Sequence record: OK254197.1
DNA from: Escherichia phage PNJ1902
Reading direction: 5' to 3' (one strand)
Length of the DNA: 64,000 nucleotides
Below, piece after piece: positions 7,042-42,294 of this stretch. The notes beneath the pieces were generated by a model, which was not told where the DNA came from, made no database searches, and saw nothing but the letters and a program-made list of their open reading frames with translations. The position numbers and the translations under genes are program-made. How positions within the stretch are numbered: the stretch's first letter is position 1; each line of letters opens with the position of its first letter.

Positions 7042-8013
7042 TTAATCGTATACTCGCTCTACGATGCACGGGATTACACCACCAGCACGAATTACTCGAA
7101 TCTGGCAACCGATCTCTAGATCGAGAGAGTTAATATAATCAACGTTATTAAGAGTCGCTTTAACAATTGTAGCATCATCAATAATTACCGGTTCGAAATA
7201 ACCAACTGGAGTTACTTTACCAGAAGCCCCTACCTGCCATTCAACTTTAGTAAGAGTTGTAATCTCGCCTTCTTCATCCTCTTTAATAGCGAATGCTCCA
7301 CGAGGAAATTTATTAGTCCAGCCTTCACGGAAGAATTTGTTGTTGTCATTAATACGAACAACTTTACCATCCGTCGGAATCCATTTAAAGAAGGAACGCA
7401 CATTAACAACTGTTAAGAAGTCCTCATTCTCTAGCCAGAGCATATCTTTTAAATACGATTCTGTAATACCTACAGATTCAGCAGAACACTGGATACCGTA
7501 TGCAACGAAGATTAGACCACCTTCTCCGATACGTTGTACGAAATCATCACTATCTTTGAGGTTAATAGCACCAGAGGCAAAGTTACGTTTATTTTCTACT
7601 TCTTTTGTAATTAGAACTTCACCAGTGATTTGAGTAGGTACTTTTTGGGAAATCTTTTTAGGGATGTTCAGCAATCTTACGTTGCTTGTGACATCATTCC
7701 CTAGAATGCCATTACCACGAGTTAGTGCTTGAACAAATTCGCCATTAATATATAACAGAGAAATCGCACAACCATCTAACTTATCAGTTTCTACCTGACC
7801 TAATGGATTAAACGGAGGTTTATCTCCACGATTATAATAAACTTTCTGTAAAGAATACATACGATACAGATGTGGAATATCTCCCTTAGGCCCAATCTCT
7901 TCTTCTAACGGAAATCTTTTAATCAGACGATCATATTCTTCGTCAGAGATTAAAGACATGCCTTGATAATATGCTTCTTGACAGCGTTTAATAAATTCTT
8001 TTACATTAGTCAT
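7042..8013 (-). CDS. NAD-dependent DNA ligase, N-terminal part (adenylation + OB fold)
   Basis: 323 aa; adenylation motif KLDG (…TDKLDGCAISLLY…). Confidence 0.8.
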   Translation of the reverse strand: MTNVKEFIKRCQEAYYQGMSLISDEEYDRLIKRFPLEEEIGPKGDIPHLYRMYSLQKVYYNRGDKPPFNPLGQVETDKLDGCAISLLYINGEFVQALTRGNGILGNDVTSNVRLLNIPKKISQKVPTQITGEVLITKEVENKRNFASGAINLKDSDDFVQRIGEGGLIFVAYGIQCSAESVGITESYLKDMLWLENEDFLTVVNVRSFFKWIPTDGKVVRINDNNKFFREGWTNKFPRGAFAIKEDEEGEITTLTKVEWQVGASGKVTPVGYFEPVIIDDATIVKATLNNVDYINSLDLEIGCQIRVIRAGGVIPCIVERVYD

Positions 8014-8116: not shown

Positions 8117-8409
8117 TTGAGTTCTTCAGCTCGTTTCTGTACTTCATGTAAAACCTCAGATTCACTAAGAATCTGTGTAAACGCATAGAAAAGCTGTGAT
8201 GTTGTTTCTAGGGTGTAAGGAAAAGAGAAGCCAGATTTCGTTGGAAACCATTCATCATTAATATCAAGAAGCCAGTAACGAATACCCATGTATAGATTCC
8301 CACGAAATTCAGATACTGTTAATCTTACTTGTTCTCCCTCCTTCTCCCAGAGTATGATGGACTGGTCATCAACGTGTCCTTCATAGTTTTGATTTACCTG
8401 TTCGCTCAT
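8101..8409 (-). CDS. Hypothetical protein
   Basis: 102 aa ORF in minus-strand operon. Confidence 0.5.
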   Translation of the reverse strand: MSEQVNQNYEGHVDDQSIILWEKEGEQVRLTVSEFRGNLYMGIRYWLLDINDEWFPTKSGFSFPYTLETTSQLFYAFTQILSESEVLHEVQKRAEELKAKNA

Positions 8410-8459
8410 TTACATATCCCAAATACACAAAAAGCCCCATATAGGGGCTAATTGGTTTC

Positions 8460-39200: not shown

Positions 39201-39548
39201 ATGATTAATGCTAAAGAAGAGTTGTTACTTGCCCTAAAGAATACTAATTCTGAAGTTAAGTGTATTAAGATAGAATTCGGTTATTATGGAGACAAAGAAG
39301 TTTGGGTATTGCCCGTAGGTTATACAGAAAAAGATATTGAAGATTTTCTAAATAATCTAGACTTTAAATATGACTCGGGTTTCGGTGGACAATTGCTTTA
39401 TGGTAACGTATGGTTTACTGATGGAACTTGGTTAGAACGTGGTGAATATGATGGTTCTGAATGGTGGGAGTATAAGACTACACCAGCAATCCCTGAGGAA
39501 TGCCGAACAATTAATGGTGAAGTAGATAATACTTTACGGTTAAACTAA
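39201..39548 (+). CDS. Hypothetical protein
   Basis: 115 aa ORF. Confidence 0.55.
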   Translation: MINAKEELLLALKNTNSEVKCIKIEFGYYGDKEVWVLPVGYTEKDIEDFLNNLDFKYDSGFGGQLLYGNVWFTDGTWLERGEYDGSEWWEYKTTPAIPEECRTINGEVDNTLRLN

Positions 39549-39553
39549 TAAAA

Positions 39554-39660
39554 TTTCAGTGCAGAACACGGAGCTAGCAATTCGGAAGTGCTGACTCATG
39601 ATAAGCTGCCTATGTACTTGCGAAGCGGTCGTGTCCAAGACTCGGACTCTTGCACTGAAA
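39554..39660 (+). ncRNA. Hairpin-closed structured element (candidate small RNA)
   Basis: 10-bp terminal inverted repeat TTTCAGTGCA/TGCACTGAAA enclosing ~87 nt, no ORF. Confidence 0.3.
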
Positions 39661-39670
39661 ACAATCAAAC

Positions 39671-39791
39671 ATTCTAGCGTGGTTGATGGGGAAACCAGCT
39701 TGGCTAGGGCAGAAGCTCGTTCGATTCGAGTGAAAGAATGGTTCTCGTAAGTCCGCACAAGTGATAACAGGTTCGAGTCCTGTCTAGAATG
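39671..39791 (+). ncRNA. tRNA-like cloverleaf with ~48-nt insertion in the anticodon loop
   Basis: Perfect 7-bp acceptor ATTCTAG/CTAGAAT, D stem TGGT/ACCA, anticodon stem GCTTG/CAAGT enclosing 55 nt, T-arm ACAGG-TTCGAGT-CCTGT. Confidence 0.4.
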
Positions 39792-39806
39792 ACACTATAA
39801 AGTTTA

Positions 39807-39920
39807 CTTATTATGTAGGTTCCGATAGATCGGCGGGTCTATTCTGGCATTTAAGAGAGGTCTCGCAAACTTCTTTGTCAGCCGTGGGGTTGGTAGCCTC
39901 CAGGTGGCCTACACAATAAG
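39807..39920 (+). ncRNA. Hairpin-closed structured element (candidate small RNA)
   Basis: 13-bp inverted repeat CTTATTATGTAGG/CCTACACAATAAG (12/13 match) enclosing ~88 nt with internal CCGATAGATCGG hairpin. Confidence 0.3.
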
Positions 39921-39940
39921 TAAATTTATTAAAAATTCAT

Positions 39941-39969
39941 TTGCTATTCTGCTTAATTCTCTGTATAAT
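39941..39969 (+). promoter_or_regulatory. sigma70 promoter (T5 early type)
   Basis: TTGCTA-17-TATAAT. Confidence 0.7.
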
Positions 39970-40001
39970 ATATTTTATAAAGTGAAGAGAAGGAAAGCAA
40001 A

Positions 40002-40160
40002 ATGAAACACAAGATAGCTCAAGTTTTTATGGCATTATGGTGTATGCCAGTAGCTATAACAGCATTTAATCTAGATACTTTTACTATAGAAGAAAAATGT
40101 ATCGGGTTAGTTAGCGGCTTTAGTATGCTGGGCTTATCCTTGTTGTGGTTGAAGAAATAA
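40002..40160 (+). CDS. Small hydrophobic protein
   Basis: 52 aa ORF with RBS AGGAAAG, hydrophobic core; below table cutoff. Confidence 0.4.
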   Translation: MKHKIAQVFMALWCMPVAITAFNLDTFTIEEKCIGLVSGFSMLGLSLLWLKK

Positions 40161-40164
40161 TATT

Positions 40165-40242
40165 CTCCGTGTAGCTCAGTTTGGCCAGAGCGTTTCGTTT
40201 GGGGCGATAGGGTCGGGGGTTCAAATCCTCCCACGGAGACCA
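40165..40242 (+). tRNA. tRNA-Pro (anticodon UGG)
   Basis: Acceptor CTCCGTG/CACGGAG, D arm GCTC...GAGC, loop TTTGGGG, T-loop TTCAAAT, CCA. Confidence 0.55.
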
Positions 40243-40248
40243 AACAAT

Positions 40249-40326
40249 TGCGGGTTAGATCTCTGGTAGAGATCGCTAGTCTCATAAGCTAGAAAGAGGT
40301 AGGTTCGATTCCTGCACCCGCTTCCA
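40249..40326 (+). tRNA. tRNA with CAU anticodon and unpaired 1:72 (initiator-like), tentative
   Basis: Acceptor TGCGGGT/ACCCGCT with U1-U72 mismatch, D stem GATC/GATC, anticodon stem CTAGT/GCTAG loop CTCATAA, CCA. Confidence 0.5.
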
Positions 40327-40346
40327 TTTTAATAGAGGATTTCGAA

Positions 40347-40514
40347 ATGAAAGTATTTCGATTAGTAGTAAGTGACAAACGTTTAGGTAAGAATACATCA
40401 AAATCCTTAATCGCTCATTACGGTAAAAATTGGGATGAAGTAATGGCAGAGTTTAATACTAATCACCCTTACTTGAAAGTTCACTCTATTAAAGAAGTAT
40501 ACAATGGTTACTAA
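40347..40514 (+). CDS. Small hypothetical protein
   Basis: 55 aa ORF with RBS GAGGA; below table cutoff. Confidence 0.35.
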   Translation: MKVFRLVVSDKRLGKNTSKSLIAHYGKNWDEVMAEFNTNHPYLKVHSIKEVYNGY

Positions 40515-40515
40515 T

Positions 40516-40594
40516 AGATCGCTAGCTCAATAGGTTTAGTAGCATCCGACTTTTAATCGGAAGGTTCTGGGTTCGAGTCCCAGGCGATCTACCA
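40516..40594 (+). tRNA. tRNA-Lys (anticodon UUU)
   Basis: Acceptor AGATCGC/GCGATCT, anticodon stem TCCGA/TCGGA loop CTTTTAA, T-arm CTGGG-TTCGAGT-CCCAG, CCA. Confidence 0.6.
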
Positions 40595-40612
40595 ATTTCA
40601 AGAAAAACGCAG

Positions 40613-40641
40613 TTGCTTGATGCTTAATTTCTTGTTATAAT
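40613..40641 (+). promoter_or_regulatory. sigma70 promoter
   Basis: TTGCTT-17-TATAAT; followed by ~230 nt ORF-free transcribed spacer. Confidence 0.65.
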
Positions 40642-40879
40642 ATTTATATAAATTGATGAGGAGAGATCCTCATCATAGTTCACTAAGGTATTAGCTCGAC
40701 CTAGGACTGGCTGCCAAAAAGCACGATCCCTTCTACTTGGGAGAAGTTCTAGATTAGTCCACTAGATTCAGCGGCAACTGAATAGTGTATCGGGTTTGCG
40801 AGATGACGCAGTTCCTTCCGCTCGAAGCGAAGGTGCTGTAGTTACGCCGAGCTAATAGCCTTAGTAAACTAAAGATTTT

Positions 40880-40954
40880 GGGCGGTTAGTTTATCTGGGA
40901 AAATACCTGACTTGCACTCAGGAGTGAGGAGTTCGACTCTCCTACTGTCCACCA
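40880..40954 (+). tRNA. tRNA-Ala (anticodon UGC)
   Basis: Anticodon stem CCTGA/TCAGG loop CTTGCAC, T-arm AGGAG-TTCGACT-CTCCT, CCA. Confidence 0.6.
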
Positions 40955-40972
40955 AATTAAAGGGTATGTAGT

Positions 40973-41473
40973 ATGAAGGTAGCTAAAAATGGGAGAAAAG
41001 ATAACTTAAATGAGTTAGAAATATTCCTCCACAATAACAAACTAGACGTAACCGCTAGTAATTACATGCAAATAGCTCTATGGTATAATGGGTATATAGT
41101 TAGGAAGGCCAATCCTAGTAAGGATAAGAAGTCAAATACATACCAAAAGAGACTAGAGCATAGCTATCAAAGATCCCTAAGAGTAGTACAGCTTTATTGT
41201 TATATCAATAATATAAATAATAAGCTGGGATATATTTATATAATATCTAATCCAGCTTTTCCAGGCTGGTTTAAAGTAGGAGCAGCCAAAGATGCTGAGA
41301 CTAGATTAAATACCTATCAAACATACTCCCCTTTTCGGGACTATGTATTAGAGTATTATAAACTAGTAGATAATTATGAACTCAAAGAAAAAGAAATCCT
41401 AAGTTCTTTTTCATCTAGAAATAATGAGTGGGTTCATGCTCCACTTGAAGAAATAATTGCTTGCGTGGCGTAA
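40973..41473 (+). CDS. T5orf172-domain (GIY-YIG-like) protein
   Basis: 166 aa; GYIYIISNP...KVGAA...RLNTYQT motif; 3' end overlaps tRNA-Leu start by ~15 nt. Confidence 0.55.
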   Translation: MKVAKNGRKDNLNELEIFLHNNKLDVTASNYMQIALWYNGYIVRKANPSKDKKSNTYQKRLEHSYQRSLRVVQLYCYINNINNKLGYIYIISNPAFPGWFKVGAAKDAETRLNTYQTYSPFRDYVLEYYKLVDNYELKEKEILSSFSSRNNEWVHAPLEEIIACVA

Positions 41474-41541
41474 TTGGTAGACGCGCGATCCTTAGGAGTT
41501 CGTGTTAATTCGTGTGGGTTCGAGTCCCTCCGCAAGCACCA
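41459..41541 (+). tRNA. tRNA-Leu (anticodon UAG), class II
   Basis: Perfect acceptor GCTTGCG/CGCAAGC, Leu-type D arm, loop CTTAGGA, long variable arm, A73, CCA. Confidence 0.55.
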
Positions 41542-41653
41542 AATTTGATGGTCAGAGTAAATTAAACCTACTATCTCGGTTGAGCTGTTTTAATGGGTTC
41601 GAATCCCAGCGAGGCGTAACTGCCTGGTGTGATAGGGGCATCATCTTATTATT

Positions 41654-41744
41654 GGAAGAGCAAATCGAATTGGCGACGAAAACCGCTTGGAAAGTGGCTG
41701 ACTGGTAAAACGGCTTGAGAGTTCAAATCTCTCCTCTTCCGCCA
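41654..41744 (+). tRNA. tRNA-Ser (anticodon GGA), class II
   Basis: Acceptor GGAAGAG/CTCTTCC, loop TTGGAAA, ~18-nt variable arm, T-arm GAGAG-TTCAAAT-CTCTC, G73, CCA. Confidence 0.5.
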
Positions 41745-41757
41745 AACAATTTATATG

Positions 41758-41851
41758 GTAGGTCAATCCAACGGCTGGCGCTGGACTCCGACTTGAAATC
41801 GGTTGATCGTAGTGATACGGTGTAAGGGTTCGATCCCCTTACCTACCTCCA
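41758..41851 (+). tRNA. tRNA-Ser (anticodon UGA), class II
   Basis: Perfect acceptor GGTAGGT/ACCTACC, loop CTTGAAA, long variable arm, T-loop TTCGATC, CCA. Confidence 0.5.
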
Positions 41852-41856
41852 AATCT

Positions 41857-41988
41857 TGAAGTATGCCGGAATTGGTAGACGGGGCTGCCTAAAAGGTTTA
41901 TAGAGAACATCCACTCTCTACAACATACCTCATAAAGCGGCTGAGATAAATGGTCTATCTCGTGAAGGTTCAAGTCCTTCTGCTTCTT
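41857..41988 (+). ncRNA. Class II tRNA-like cloverleaf with ~41-nt insertion in the anticodon loop
   Basis: Acceptor TGAAGTA/TGCTTCT (6/7, U1-U72), U8-G9, Leu-type D arm, anticodon stem GCTGC/GCGGC enclosing 48 nt, variable hairpin GAGATA...TATCTC, T-arm GAAGG-TTCAAGT-CCTTC; no encoded CCA. Confidence 0.4.
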
Positions 41989-42102
41989 GATACATCTATG
42001 GCTCAAAGTGTAACGGTGCTATTTGATGCTCTTAGTAAGACTTCCCCGACATGCGTTCGGGAGTAAGCTGCTAAGGCTAGGGTAGAAGAGTTTCGGAGAG
42101 CC

Positions 42103-42222
42103 GCCACAATTGAAAATTCGTACTCGTCTTGAGCTGCGTGCAATAGGAGATAACTTGATTAGTATTCTAGAACATGCTAATTGAGGAAGGTTTCGCTAAC
42201 CCTGCGAGTTTTCAATTGTGGC
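42103..42222 (+). ncRNA. Hairpin-closed structured element abutting tRNA-His
   Basis: 14-bp perfect inverted repeat GCCACAATTGAAAA/TTTTCAATTGTGGC enclosing ~92 nt; right arm overlaps tRNA-His 5' end. Confidence 0.3.
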
Positions 42223-42294
42223 TATATCATAATTGGTTAATGATCCTGATTGTGAATCAGGCCTATGTGGATTCGAATTCCACTAGCCACCCCA
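42218..42294 (+). tRNA. tRNA-His (anticodon GUG)
   Basis: Perfect acceptor GTGGCTA/TAGCCAC, anticodon stem CCTGA/TCAGG loop TTGTGAA, T-arm GTGGA-TTCGAAT-TCCAC, C73, CCA. Confidence 0.6.

What the first reader, a model, noticed from the sequence alone, without database searches (positions are those of the whole stretch)
39554..42222. Three ORF-free ~100-nt elements each closed by a 10-14-bp inverted repeat within the tRNA cluster
Segments 39554-39660, 39807-39920 and 42103-42222 lack ORFs and tRNA T-loops but are each bracketed by long perfect or near-perfect inverted repeats. They are transcribed from strong promoters together with the tRNAs. The right arm of the third overlaps the 5' end of tRNA-His, suggesting a role in processing or an alternative structure. 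They are candidates for structured small RNAs.
Basis: seen in the sequence. Interest (0 to 1): 0.6.

Follow-up and report, generated by a model that had tools for sequence, protein, structure and literature searches.

The report
Known T5 small stable RNAs, plus one
Two of the three hairpin-closed segments are the long-catalogued but functionally unexplained small stable RNAs III and IV of phage T5, and the third is a similarly conserved, unannotated neighbour that has not been shown to be an RNA.

Summary
The window is a T5-like phage (Tequintavirus) tRNA region.

- **Element 2** (39800-39927) is T5 rnaIV. The annotated mature RNA maps to 39813-39915.
- **Element 3** (42103-42222) is T5 rnaIII, 42111-42216, abutting tRNA-His.
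- GenBank labels both "stable RNA with unknown functions".
- **Element 1** (39554-39660) is annotated in no T5 record examined.

RNA IV is a four-way junction with strong covariation. It has a homologue in Pectobacterium phage My1 that keeps the loop CUCGCAA.

The long helix closing RNA III pairs the CCA end of RNA I with the first bases of tRNA-His. This helix covaries across three genera. The interior is not detectably related between T5 RNA III and the cassettes of other lineages.

The annotated RNA III ends lie across that helix with a 2-nt 3' overhang. This suggests RNase III excision, which is inferred, not shown.

Element 1 is as conserved as a tRNA. However, its 10-bp repeat is within chance, it shows no covariation, and it folds equally well on both strands.

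Neither RNA family is in Rfam. Function remains unknown. Verdict: largely already known, with a modest new family-level description.

The parts
39554..39660 (+). Element 1 (E1): an unannotated, ORF-free 107-nt segment closed by a perfect 10-bp inverted repeat (39554-63 / 39651-60). It lies between the stop codon of the T5.067 homologue and the tRNA-like rna2.
   Evidence: Repeat. Absent from the annotation of AY543070, AY587007 and AY692264. Diversity pi 0.011 against 0.078 for the adjoining CDS. Found in 219 phage records, 217 of them >=95% identical. z -1.67. No covariation. No strand asymmetry.
39670..39794 (+). Context: homologue of T5 rna2 ('tRNA-like stable RNA with unknown functions'), lying between E1 and RNA IV.
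   Evidence: Coordinates mapped from AY543070.
39800..39812 (+). 5' arm of the outer, A/U-rich 13-bp helix flanking RNA IV. It lies outside the annotated mature RNA.
   Evidence: The arm is nearly invariant: one column varies in 2 of 26 variants.
39813..39915 (+). RNA IV, the homologue of T5 rnaIV (103 nt). It is a four-way junction: a 9-bp closing helix, a hairpin with tetraloop GGCG (39832-35), a long middle arm with the invariant 7-nt loop CUCGCAA (39862-68), and a short third hairpin.
   Evidence: Mapping. Of 26 variants, 99.3% of cells are paired. Nine pairs carry double changes against 1.5 in shuffles (0 of 500). MFE is -48.0 on the + strand against -35.9 on the - strand. Homologue in phage My1 at 44 bits.
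39916..39927 (+). 3' arm of the outer helix of RNA IV. It lies 14 nt upstream of the -35 hexamer of the P13a-like promoter.
39941..39969 (+). P13a-like promoter (TTGCTA-17-TATAAT), downstream of RNA IV. E1, rna2 and RNA IV must therefore be transcribed from a promoter further upstream.
   Evidence: T5 annotation. T5-type promoter consensus TTGCTw/TATAATA in PMC3326045.
42000..42106 (+). Context: RNA I, the homologue of T5 rnaI (107 nt). It has an acceptor-like stem GGCUC/GAGCC and ends in GCCA. The last four bases, GCCA (42103-42106), form the base of the long helix.
42103..42122 (+). 5' strand of the 20-bp helix enclosing RNA III. It covers the RNA I GCCA end, the 4-nt spacer CAAU and the first 12 nt of RNA III.
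   Evidence: The equivalent helix covaries in other genera.
42111..42216 (+). RNA III, the homologue of T5 rnaIII (106 nt). It has a 12-bp terminal helix, a weak first arm, a 12-bp middle hairpin and a short hairpin with loop UUCGCUA.
   Evidence: Mapping. Found in 282 phage records, all >=90% identical. pi 0.007. MFE is -45.6 on the + strand against -33.2 on the - strand.
42203..42222 (+). 3' strand of the 20-bp helix. It covers the last 14 nt of RNA III, U-1 and bases 1-5 of tRNA-His.
42217..42294 (+). tRNA-His(GUG): 78 nt including U-1 as annotated in T5, or 42218-42294 by ARAGORN.
40613..40641 (+). P13b-like promoter (TTGCTT-17-TATAAT) read from the sequence. It is the nearest annotated-type promoter upstream of the RNA2H ... 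RNA I - RNA III - tRNA-His block.
   Evidence: Sequence. T5 promoter P13b at the same position.

Best explanation
The three segments are modules of the T5-type tRNA transcription units. They encode, or in the case of E1 probably encode, small highly folded non-coding RNAs of about 105 nt.

**Identity.** Element 2 is RNA IV and element 3 is RNA III, two stable RNAs already catalogued for T5. Element 1 (E1) is an unannotated candidate of the same size and layout: a closing helix plus three arms.

**How they are made (inferred).** They are transcribed together with the neighbouring tRNAs and tRNA-like RNAs. They are then released from the precursor by cuts inside their long closing helices.
- For RNA III, a 20-bp helix pairs the CCA end of RNA I and a 4-nt spacer with U-1 and bases 1-5 of tRNA-His.
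- The annotated ends (5' at 42111, 3' at 42216) lie opposite each other with a 2-nt 3' overhang. This is the geometry left by host RNase III.
- One double cut would release RNA III and define the tRNA-His 5' end at U-1. It would leave four bases on RNA I to be trimmed back to CCA. RNase P could make the same 3' cut.
- RNA IV lies inside a helix of about 22 bp. Its annotated ends sit at an internal loop, with a 1-nt overhang.

**What is shown.**
- Homology to the T5 genes.
- The folds and their covariation.
- tRNA-like sequence conservation.
- Conservation of the tRNA-His-proximal helix across genera.

**What is inferred.**
- Co-transcription.
- RNase III as the enzyme.
- That E1 is an RNA at all.

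**Function of the released RNAs.** Not established. The invariant loops of RNA IV argue that it binds a specific partner.
For: **Homology and position**
- T5 AY543070 and AY692264 and phage DT571/2 annotate rnaIII, rnaI, rnaIV and rna2 in the same order.

**Conservation**
- Window against T5: RNA IV 98.4% and E1 99.2% identical, against 88.2% and 66.7% for the flanking CDSs.
- Diversity among about 20 Tequintavirus loci: RNA III 0.007, E1 0.011, RNA IV 0.035, tRNA-Asp 0.015, CDSs 0.072-0.078.

**RNA IV fold**
- 49 pairs, 99.3% of cells paired.
- 9 pairs with double changes, 0 of 500 shuffles reaching that number. Slid controls give at most 3.
- The My1 homologue keeps the GGCG and CUCGCAA loops while its stems change.

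**RNA III slot**
- Four cassette types lie between the RNA I CCA end and tRNA-His, all closed by a helix of 18 bp or more.
- The type B/C family is found in Salmonella, Klebsiella and Pectobacterium phages at the same position.
- In that family, 7 of the 18 closing-helix pairs change on both sides and 98.4% of cells are paired.

**Strand**
- The + strand folds about 12 kcal/mol better for RNA III, RNA IV and RNA I.

**End geometry**
- Taken from the annotated coordinates and the helix register.

**Precedent**
- E. coli RNase III cuts double-stranded stems in rRNA precursors and takes part in T4 tRNA maturation (PMC4810235).
Against: - No transcript data were available. The stability of RNA III and RNA IV rests on GenBank notes for T5, not on this phage.
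- The RNase III assignment rests only on helix length and annotated end positions. The RNA IV overhang is 1 nt, not 2.
- RNase P plus RNase E and exonucleases could give the same ends.
- E1's closing helix (10-12 bp) is too short for a typical RNase III site and is not beyond chance.
- E1 has no compensatory changes and no diverged homologue. It folds equally well on both strands.
- The T5 tRNA region tolerates large deletions in the laboratory (PMC12483538), so none of these RNAs is essential there.
Confidence: 0.7

Rival explanations
1. These are cis-acting processing spacers only. The long helices exist to fold the precursor into independent domains and to guide nucleases between neighbouring tRNAs. 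The ~105-nt RNAs are stable by-products with no role of their own.
For: In the slot before tRNA-His the outer helix is conserved and covaries. The interior is not detectably related between cassette types A, B/C and D. The region is dispensable in the laboratory.
Against: Within each lineage the interiors are as conserved as tRNAs (pi 0.007-0.035). The interior hairpins of RNA IV and of the type B/C family show compensatory changes. The loops GGCG and CUCGCAA are invariant from T5 to My1. A mere spacer would not need any of this.
Confidence: 0.25
2. They are tRNA-derived mimics that act in trans, for example as decoys or sponges for host enzymes or defence nucleases that recognise tRNA-shaped RNA.
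For: All have a cloverleaf-like topology of a closing helix plus three arms. The middle arm of RNA IV ends in a 7-nt loop, C-U-CGC-A-A, which fits the anticodon-loop pattern Y-U-NNN-R-N. They sit among tRNAs and tRNA-like RNAs. T5 tRNAs are known to counter tRNA-targeting defences (cited in PMC10644984).
Against: No match to the tRNA model at E<=10, and ARAGORN finds nothing. RNA III, RNA IV and E1 have no T-loop and no 3' CCA. No experimental link to any defence system was found in the literature searched.
Confidence: 0.12
3. Element 1 is not an RNA gene. It is a conserved DNA-level or 3'-untranslated segment whose 10-bp inverted repeat arose by chance.
For: Ten-nt perfect repeats at this spacing are expected about 7 times per window. 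z is only -1.67. MFE is equal on both strands. There are no pairs with double changes. No homologue is below 90% identity. No record annotates it.
Against: pi is 0.011 over the whole 120 nt, against 0.078 for the CDS that ends 5 nt upstream. In phage PRF-SP13 the element follows a tRNA-like RNA instead of that CDS, so it is not tied to the gene. Eight of the 10 variable columns fall in predicted loops, and the other two are wobble-compatible.
Confidence: 0.35
4. They are miniature inverted-repeat mobile elements, or footprints of homing-endonuclease traffic.
For: Terminal inverted repeats are present. Distribution among T5-like phages is patchy, and homing-endonuclease genes occur in the same region.
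Against: Each element is single-copy in the window. The three repeats are unrelated to each other, and there are no flanking target duplications. Position relative to the neighbouring tRNAs is fixed across genera.
Confidence: 0.03
5. They are transcription terminators or attenuators.
For: The terminator-like scan gives one hit, at 42192-42208, followed by TTTTCAATTG.
Against: That hit is part of the RNA III closing helix and lies directly upstream of tRNA-His, which must be transcribed. No U-tract follows E1 or RNA IV. The scan finds no more sites than in shuffles (5 against 3.6).
Confidence: 0.03

Closest known systems
Phage T5 rnaIII and rnaIV (misc_RNA features of GenBank AY543070 and AY692264; also in phage DT571/2, KM979355)
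   Same: The sequence is 98-99% identical to T5. The neighbours, order and lengths are the same: 106 nt abutting tRNA-His, and 103 nt after rna2 and before promoter P13a.
   Different: Nothing substantive differs for elements 2 and 3. Element 1 has no counterpart in those annotations, although the sequence is present in T5.
Phage T4 species 1 and species 2 RNAs (rnaC, rnaD), stable RNAs of unknown function encoded with the T4 tRNA cluster (from my own knowledge)
   Same: They are small stable RNAs co-transcribed with phage tRNAs and cut from a common precursor by host enzymes. RNase III takes part in T4 tRNA maturation (PMC4810235). Their function is unknown after decades.
   Different: No sequence comparison was run, so homology is untested. 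The phage families differ.
RNase III processing stalks of bacterial rRNA precursors
   Same: A helix of about 20 bp, formed by the sequences flanking a structured RNA, is cut on both strands to release the enclosed RNA (PMC4810235). The annotated RNA III ends give a 2-nt 3' overhang.
   Different: The enclosed RNA is about 100 nt rather than an rRNA. One strand of the helix is the 5' acceptor strand of a tRNA. RNase III dependence is untested.
tRNA and tRNA-like RNAs (Rfam RF00005; T5 rna1, rna2, rna3)
   Same: Cloverleaf-like four-way junction. An anticodon-loop-like 7-nt loop in RNA IV. Location in the tRNA cluster.
   Different: No T-loop, D-loop or CCA end. They are about 30 nt longer than a tRNA. 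They are not detected by the tRNA model or by ARAGORN.

Membership tests
T5 stable RNA III (rnaIII) | Sequence homology to the annotated T5 or DT571/2 rnaIII gene. | tested here: met
   99% identity over 120 nt to L003 (T5) and L001 (DT571/2). Coordinates transfer to window 42111-42216.
T5 stable RNA III (rnaIII) | Position between rnaI and tRNA-His, abutting the tRNA. | tested here: met
   RNA I at 42000-42106, RNA III at 42111-42216, tRNA-His at 42217/8-42294.
T5 stable RNA III (rnaIII) | A discrete stable transcript in infected cells. | not testable with these tools
   Rests only on the GenBank note 'stable RNA with unknown functions' for T5.
T5 stable RNA IV (rnaIV) | Sequence homology to the annotated T5 rnaIV gene, and position after rna2 and before promoter P13a. 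| tested here: met
   98.4% identity. T5 rnaIV maps to window 39813-39915, rna2 to 39670-39794, and the promoter to 39941-39969.
T5 stable RNA IV (rnaIV) | A discrete stable transcript in infected cells. | not testable with these tools
   GenBank note only.
T5-type stable RNA (for element 1) | Annotated or published as a T5 RNA. | tested here: not met
   The gap between rna2 and T5.067 is unannotated in AY543070, AY587007 and AY692264. None of the 40 sampled records out of 219 annotates an RNA there.
T5-type stable RNA (for element 1) | A conserved secondary structure supported by covariation. | tested here: inconclusive
   35 predicted pairs, none broken. There are no double changes, and every control is equal to the observed value. 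No diverged homologue was found with model R2.
tRNA (Rfam RF00005) | A cloverleaf with D and T loops, detectable by the covariance model or ARAGORN. | tested here: not met
   No hit in any of the three segments at E<=10. ARAGORN finds none.
RNase III substrate | A double helix of about two turns (about 20 bp). | tested here: met
   Met for RNA III (20 bp) and RNA IV (13 + 9 bp around a 2x2 internal loop). Not met for E1 (10-12 bp).
RNase III substrate | Staggered cuts that leave 2-nt 3' overhangs. | tested here: inconclusive
   The annotated ends give a 2-nt overhang for RNA III (42111 pairs with 42214, 3' end at 42216). They give 1 nt for RNA IV (39813 lies opposite 39914, 3' end at 39915). 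How those ends were determined is unknown to me.
RNase III substrate | Cleavage that depends on the host rnc gene. | not testable with these tools
   No experimental data available.
Miniature inverted-repeat transposable element | Terminal inverted repeats plus target-site duplication plus several copies. | tested here: not met
   Repeats are present, but each element is single-copy and has no flanking direct repeats.
Intrinsic terminator | A G+C-rich hairpin followed by a U tract at the end of a transcription unit. | tested here: not met
   The only hit, 42192-42208, is inside the RNA III helix upstream of tRNA-His. Counts do not exceed shuffles.
Any described Rfam family (including Y RNA/YrlA, tmRNA and phage RNAs) | A score above the gathering threshold, or at least E<=10. 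| tested here: not met
   for the window. for loci holding the type B/C cassettes and the My1 homologue: only tRNAs.
T4 species 1/2 RNAs (rnaC, rnaD) | Sequence or structure homology. | not tested
   The T4 sequences were not retrieved. The resemblance is functional and comes from memory.

The most novel reading that the evidence does not exclude
The ~105-nt four-way-junction RNAs (RNA III, RNA IV and the unannotated E1) are trans-acting tRNA-shaped decoys. Their loops, held invariant across phage subfamilies (for example CUCGCAA in RNA IV), would bind or divert a host factor such as a tRNA-targeting defence nuclease or a tRNA-processing enzyme. Separately, the conserved helix in front of tRNA-His would be an RNase III 'ruler' that sets the unusual U-1 5' end of the phage tRNA-His.
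Probability: 0.1. Interest if true: 0.7.

Novelty: already known. Interest (0 to 1): 0.33.

Why it matters
T5 RNA III and RNA IV have carried the label "stable RNA with unknown functions" for decades. Almost all of the several hundred T5-like genome records sampled here leave them unannotated, or call spurious ORFs over them.

This analysis adds four points:
- Both belong to structured RNA families that are absent from Rfam.
- These families have real covariation and reach across Demerecviridae genera.
- The helix joining the RNA I CCA end to the tRNA-His 5' end is a conserved feature of the precursor.
- A third, equally conserved segment (E1) has been overlooked.

The tRNA region of T5 has recently been tied to escape from bacterial defence systems. 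A defined set of conserved non-tRNA RNAs there gives concrete deletion and pull-down targets. The practical gain is better annotation and a testable processing model. It is not a new kind of system.

Tried and rejected
1. **Paralogy among the elements.** The RNA IV covariance model R1 hits nothing else in the window at E<=10. The E1 model R2 finds only E1 copies.
2. **Homology of T5 RNA III to the cassettes of other lineages.** The interior alignment z is 1.3-1.9, against 4.3 for type B against type C. Homology is not supported. The interior is either replaced or diverged beyond recognition.
3. **Antisense pairing.** RNA IV 39866-39879 is perfectly complementary to 39291-39304 in the upstream CDS (14 nt, E 0.025). 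The CDS site varies among phages with no matching change in RNA IV. This is chance.
4. **Host similarity.** No match to 5,426 E. coli genomes.
5. **E1 linked to the T5.067 gene.** Distant homologues of that protein in 13 viral contigs have no comparable element downstream. In PRF-SP13, E1 occurs without the gene.
6. **Mobile element.** Single-copy, with no target duplication.
7. **Literature.** Eight full-text searches found no paper in the held library that describes these RNAs. The original descriptions are presumably in journals that are not held.
8. **Pfam on neighbouring small ORFs.** Only the T5orf172/MUG113 domain in ORF 40973-41473.

Full report
**What the window is.**
- The region 39500-42300 matches 472 phage records, nearly all of them T5-like phages of Salmonella and Escherichia. 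The best match is 98% identical over the full length.
- ARAGORN finds 21 tRNA genes on the + strand. Rfam finds only tRNAs.
- The window + strand corresponds to the T5 minus strand.

**Observation.**
- The three inverted repeats are real:
  - 39554-63 / 39651-60: 10 nt, perfect.
  - 39800-19 / 39908-27: 20 nt, 90% complementary.
  - 42103-20 / 42205-22: 18 nt, 94% complementary. Folding extends this to 20 bp.
- None of the segments holds a tRNA. None holds an ORF longer than 72 aa.
- The third repeat's right arm covers bases 1-5 of tRNA-His.
- Against dinucleotide shuffles, the second and third repeats are beyond chance. The first is not: 10-nt perfect repeats at this spacing number 14 observed against 7.4 expected, while repeats of 13 nt or more number 2 against 0.2.

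**Identity.**
- The T5 record AY543070 annotates a series of misc_RNA genes among the tRNAs: rna3, rna2, rnaIV, rna2H, rna1, rnaI and rnaIII. All are noted as stable or tRNA-like RNAs 'with unknown functions'.
- AY692264 and phage DT571/2 carry the same features.
- Alignment transfers these to the window:
  - rnaIV = 39813-39915.
  - rna2 = 39670-39794.
  - rnaI = 42000-42106.
  - rnaIII = 42111-42216, followed directly by tRNA-His.
- So element 2 is RNA IV plus a 13-bp outer helix extension. Element 3 is RNA III plus an 8-bp extension.
- Element 1 (E1) falls in the 121-nt gap between the T5.067 gene and rna2. That gap is unannotated in all three T5 records and in every sampled record that holds it.

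**Conservation.**
- RNA III occurs in 282 phage records, all at least 90% identical. E1 occurs in 219 records, 217 of them at least 95% identical.
- Nucleotide diversity among about 20 Tequintavirus loci:

| Feature | pi |
|---|---|
| tRNA-His | 0.001 |
| RNA III | 0.007 |
| E1 | 0.011 |
| tRNA-Asp | 0.015 |
| RNA IV | 0.035 |
| Two flanking CDSs | 0.072-0.078 |
| P13a promoter region | 0.087 |

- These segments are therefore under tRNA-like purifying selection.

**RNA IV structure.**
- Twenty-six distinct variants were collected from viral and metagenome contigs and annotated phages.
- RNAalifold gives a four-way junction:
  - an outer 13-bp helix;
  - a 2x2 internal loop, where the annotated mature ends lie;
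  - a 9-bp helix;
  - an 8-bp hairpin with tetraloop GGCG;
  - a 5+8-bp middle arm with the invariant loop CUCGCAA;
  - a short third hairpin.
- Pair counting gives 99.3% of cells paired. Nine pairs have changes on both sides, against 1.5±1.1 in shuffles (0 of 500) and at most 3 in slid controls.
- A covariance model of this alignment finds a homologue in Pectobacterium phage My1, which belongs to a different subfamily, at 44 bits.
  - It keeps both loops and changes most stem sequences.
  - Its outer 3' arm overlaps the 5' end of the next tRNA, tRNA-Lys.
- The + strand folds 12 kcal/mol better than the - strand.

**The RNA III slot.**
- Between the CCA end of RNA I and tRNA-His, different lineages carry different interiors:
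  - type A, 111 nt (T5 RNA III);
  - type B, 138 nt;
  - type C, 148 nt;
  - type D, 68 nt.
- All are closed by a helix of at least 18 bp. Its base pairs the RNA I CCA with the first bases of tRNA-His.
- Types B and C are homologous to each other. The type A interior is not detectably related to them.
- Type C has 72-82% identical relatives in about 77 Klebsiella Sugarlandvirus genomes, at the same position. It also has a relative in My1 with a 20-bp helix of different sequence.
- On seven sequences the consensus is again a long closing helix plus three arms. Twenty-four of 56 pairs carry double changes.
- In the closing helix, 7 of 18 pairs change on both sides and 98.4% of cells are paired. 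No shuffle reaches the observed covariation.
- The helix joining RNA I, the enclosed RNA and tRNA-His is thus a selected feature of the precursor in at least four genera.
- Within Tequintavirus the few RNA III substitutions lie mostly in the weak first arm and in linkers.

**Processing model (inference).**
- In the 20-bp helix, position i pairs with position 84325 minus i.
- The annotated RNA III 5' end, 42111, pairs with 42214. The 3' end is 42216. This gives a 2-nt 3' overhang, as RNase III leaves.
- One staggered double cut would produce four things:
  - RNA I plus CAAU, to be trimmed back to CCA;
  - RNA III;
  - a 78-nt tRNA-His beginning with U-1, as T5 annotates it;
  - the observed 4-nt gap between RNA I and RNA III.
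- The helix length is 20 bp, and the cut falls 12 bp from the junction.
- RNase III involvement in T4 tRNA maturation and in rRNA stalk cleavage is documented (PMC4810235).
- RNA IV ends give a 1-nt overhang at an internal loop, which is compatible but less clean.
- RNase P at tRNA-His, together with RNase E and exonucleases, is an equally possible route.
- I could not find how the GenBank ends were determined.

**Transcription (inference).**
- T5-type promoters (consensus TTGCTw ... TATAATA, PMC3326045) lie at two places:
  - 39941-39969, downstream of RNA IV;
  - 40613-40641, upstream of the RNA2H ... tRNA-His block.
- No terminator-like site separates the elements from the neighbouring tRNAs.
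- E1, rna2 and RNA IV must be read from a promoter upstream of tRNA-Asp.

**E1.**
- *For an RNA gene:*
  - conservation at tRNA level;
  - non-coding;
  - the same size (107 nt) and predicted layout as the others;
  - independence from the upstream CDS: in PRF-SP13 it follows a tRNA-like RNA two bases after its CCA;
  - eight of 10 variable columns fall in predicted loops, and the other two are wobble-compatible.
- *Against:*
  - the repeat is within chance;
  - z is -1.67;
  - there is no strand asymmetry;
  - there are no compensatory changes;
  - there is no diverged homologue.
- I put the chance that E1 is a stable RNA at about 0.5-0.6.

**Function.**
- Function is unknown.
- The T5 tRNA region tolerates deletions of up to 15 kb in the laboratory (PMC12483538). 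Any role is therefore conditional.
- Interior covariation and invariant loops argue against pure spacers. The interchangeable interiors before tRNA-His argue that the helix has a role of its own.
- The two are compatible: a conserved processing scaffold that carries lineage-specific RNA cargo.
- No Rfam family matches any of these RNAs.
- No E. coli sequence resembles them.
- They are single-copy, without target duplications.

**Verdict.**
It is open for the third.
- New here:
  - the family-level structures;
  - their spread across Demerecviridae;
  - the conserved RNA I / tRNA-His helix with an RNase III-like end geometry;
  - the overlooked E1.

Noticed in passing
window 41654-41745 and 41757-41851: ARAGORN misses two tRNA-Ser genes, which T5 and DT571/2 annotate as tRNA-Ser(GGA) and tRNA-Ser(UGA). 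They appear in Rfam only as sub-threshold hits to the tRNA-Sec model (19.7 and 38.3 bits).
   Followed up: partly
window 40676-40870: A ~195-nt segment closed by a helix of about 23 bp (MFE -71 kcal/mol) lies just after the P13b-like promoter. It is the homologue of T5 rna2H (172 nt, 'stable RNA with unknown functions').
   Followed up: partly
window 42000-42106; L040 9493-9592; L086 about 1393-1490: RNA I has a tRNA-like acceptor stem and an encoded CCA end. Its two ends are conserved from T5 to Klebsiella phages, with GGCUC/GAGCC becoming GGCCC/GGGCC. Its interior in Tequintavirus differs entirely from the interior shared by Epseptimavirus and Sugarlandvirus.
   Followed up: partly
window 39684-39781 (rna2): The tRNA-like rna2 is the most widely conserved piece of this block. 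It gives blastn hits at 76-91% in Pantoea and Klebsiella phages, and a 63-nt match at 86% in the T4-like Acinetobacter phage 133.
   Followed up: no
window 41542-41640: An ORF-free ~100-nt segment between tRNA-Leu and tRNA-Ser(GGA) is 97-99% identical in 20 related loci. It contains a T-loop-like GGGTTCGAATCCC. It is unannotated in DT571/2 and may be a tRNA remnant or another small RNA.
   Followed up: no
window 40973-41473: A 166-aa ORF with a T5orf172/MUG113 domain (GIY-YIG-like, typical of homing-endonuclease-type genes) is inserted between tRNA-Ala and tRNA-Leu. Its 3' end overlaps the first 15 nt of tRNA-Leu (41459). T5 has an HNH endonuclease gene a little further downstream instead.
   Followed up: partly
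L043 (Pectobacterium phage My1) about 8300-8425 and 7940-8000: My1 carries further hairpin-closed, ORF-free elements of unrelated sequence in the slots between tRNA-like genes. One is about 110 nt, closed by TTAGTGTTAATAT / ATATTAACACTAA. Another, about 57 nt, precedes rna2. This suggests that helix-closed modules are a general feature of Demerecviridae tRNA clusters.
   Followed up: no
window 42217; L086 1643; L043 15887: The phage tRNA-His genes have U, not G, at position -1. Their discriminators are C73 in T5-like phages and My1, and U73 in Sugarland. So the G-1:C73 pair that directs RNase P in E. coli cannot form. In the precursor, U-1 is paired inside the long helix instead.
   Followed up: partly
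window 39866-39879 against 39291-39304: There is 14-nt perfect complementarity between the RNA IV middle arm and the upstream T5.067-like CDS. It is not conserved among related phages, so it is judged to be chance.
   Followed up: yes
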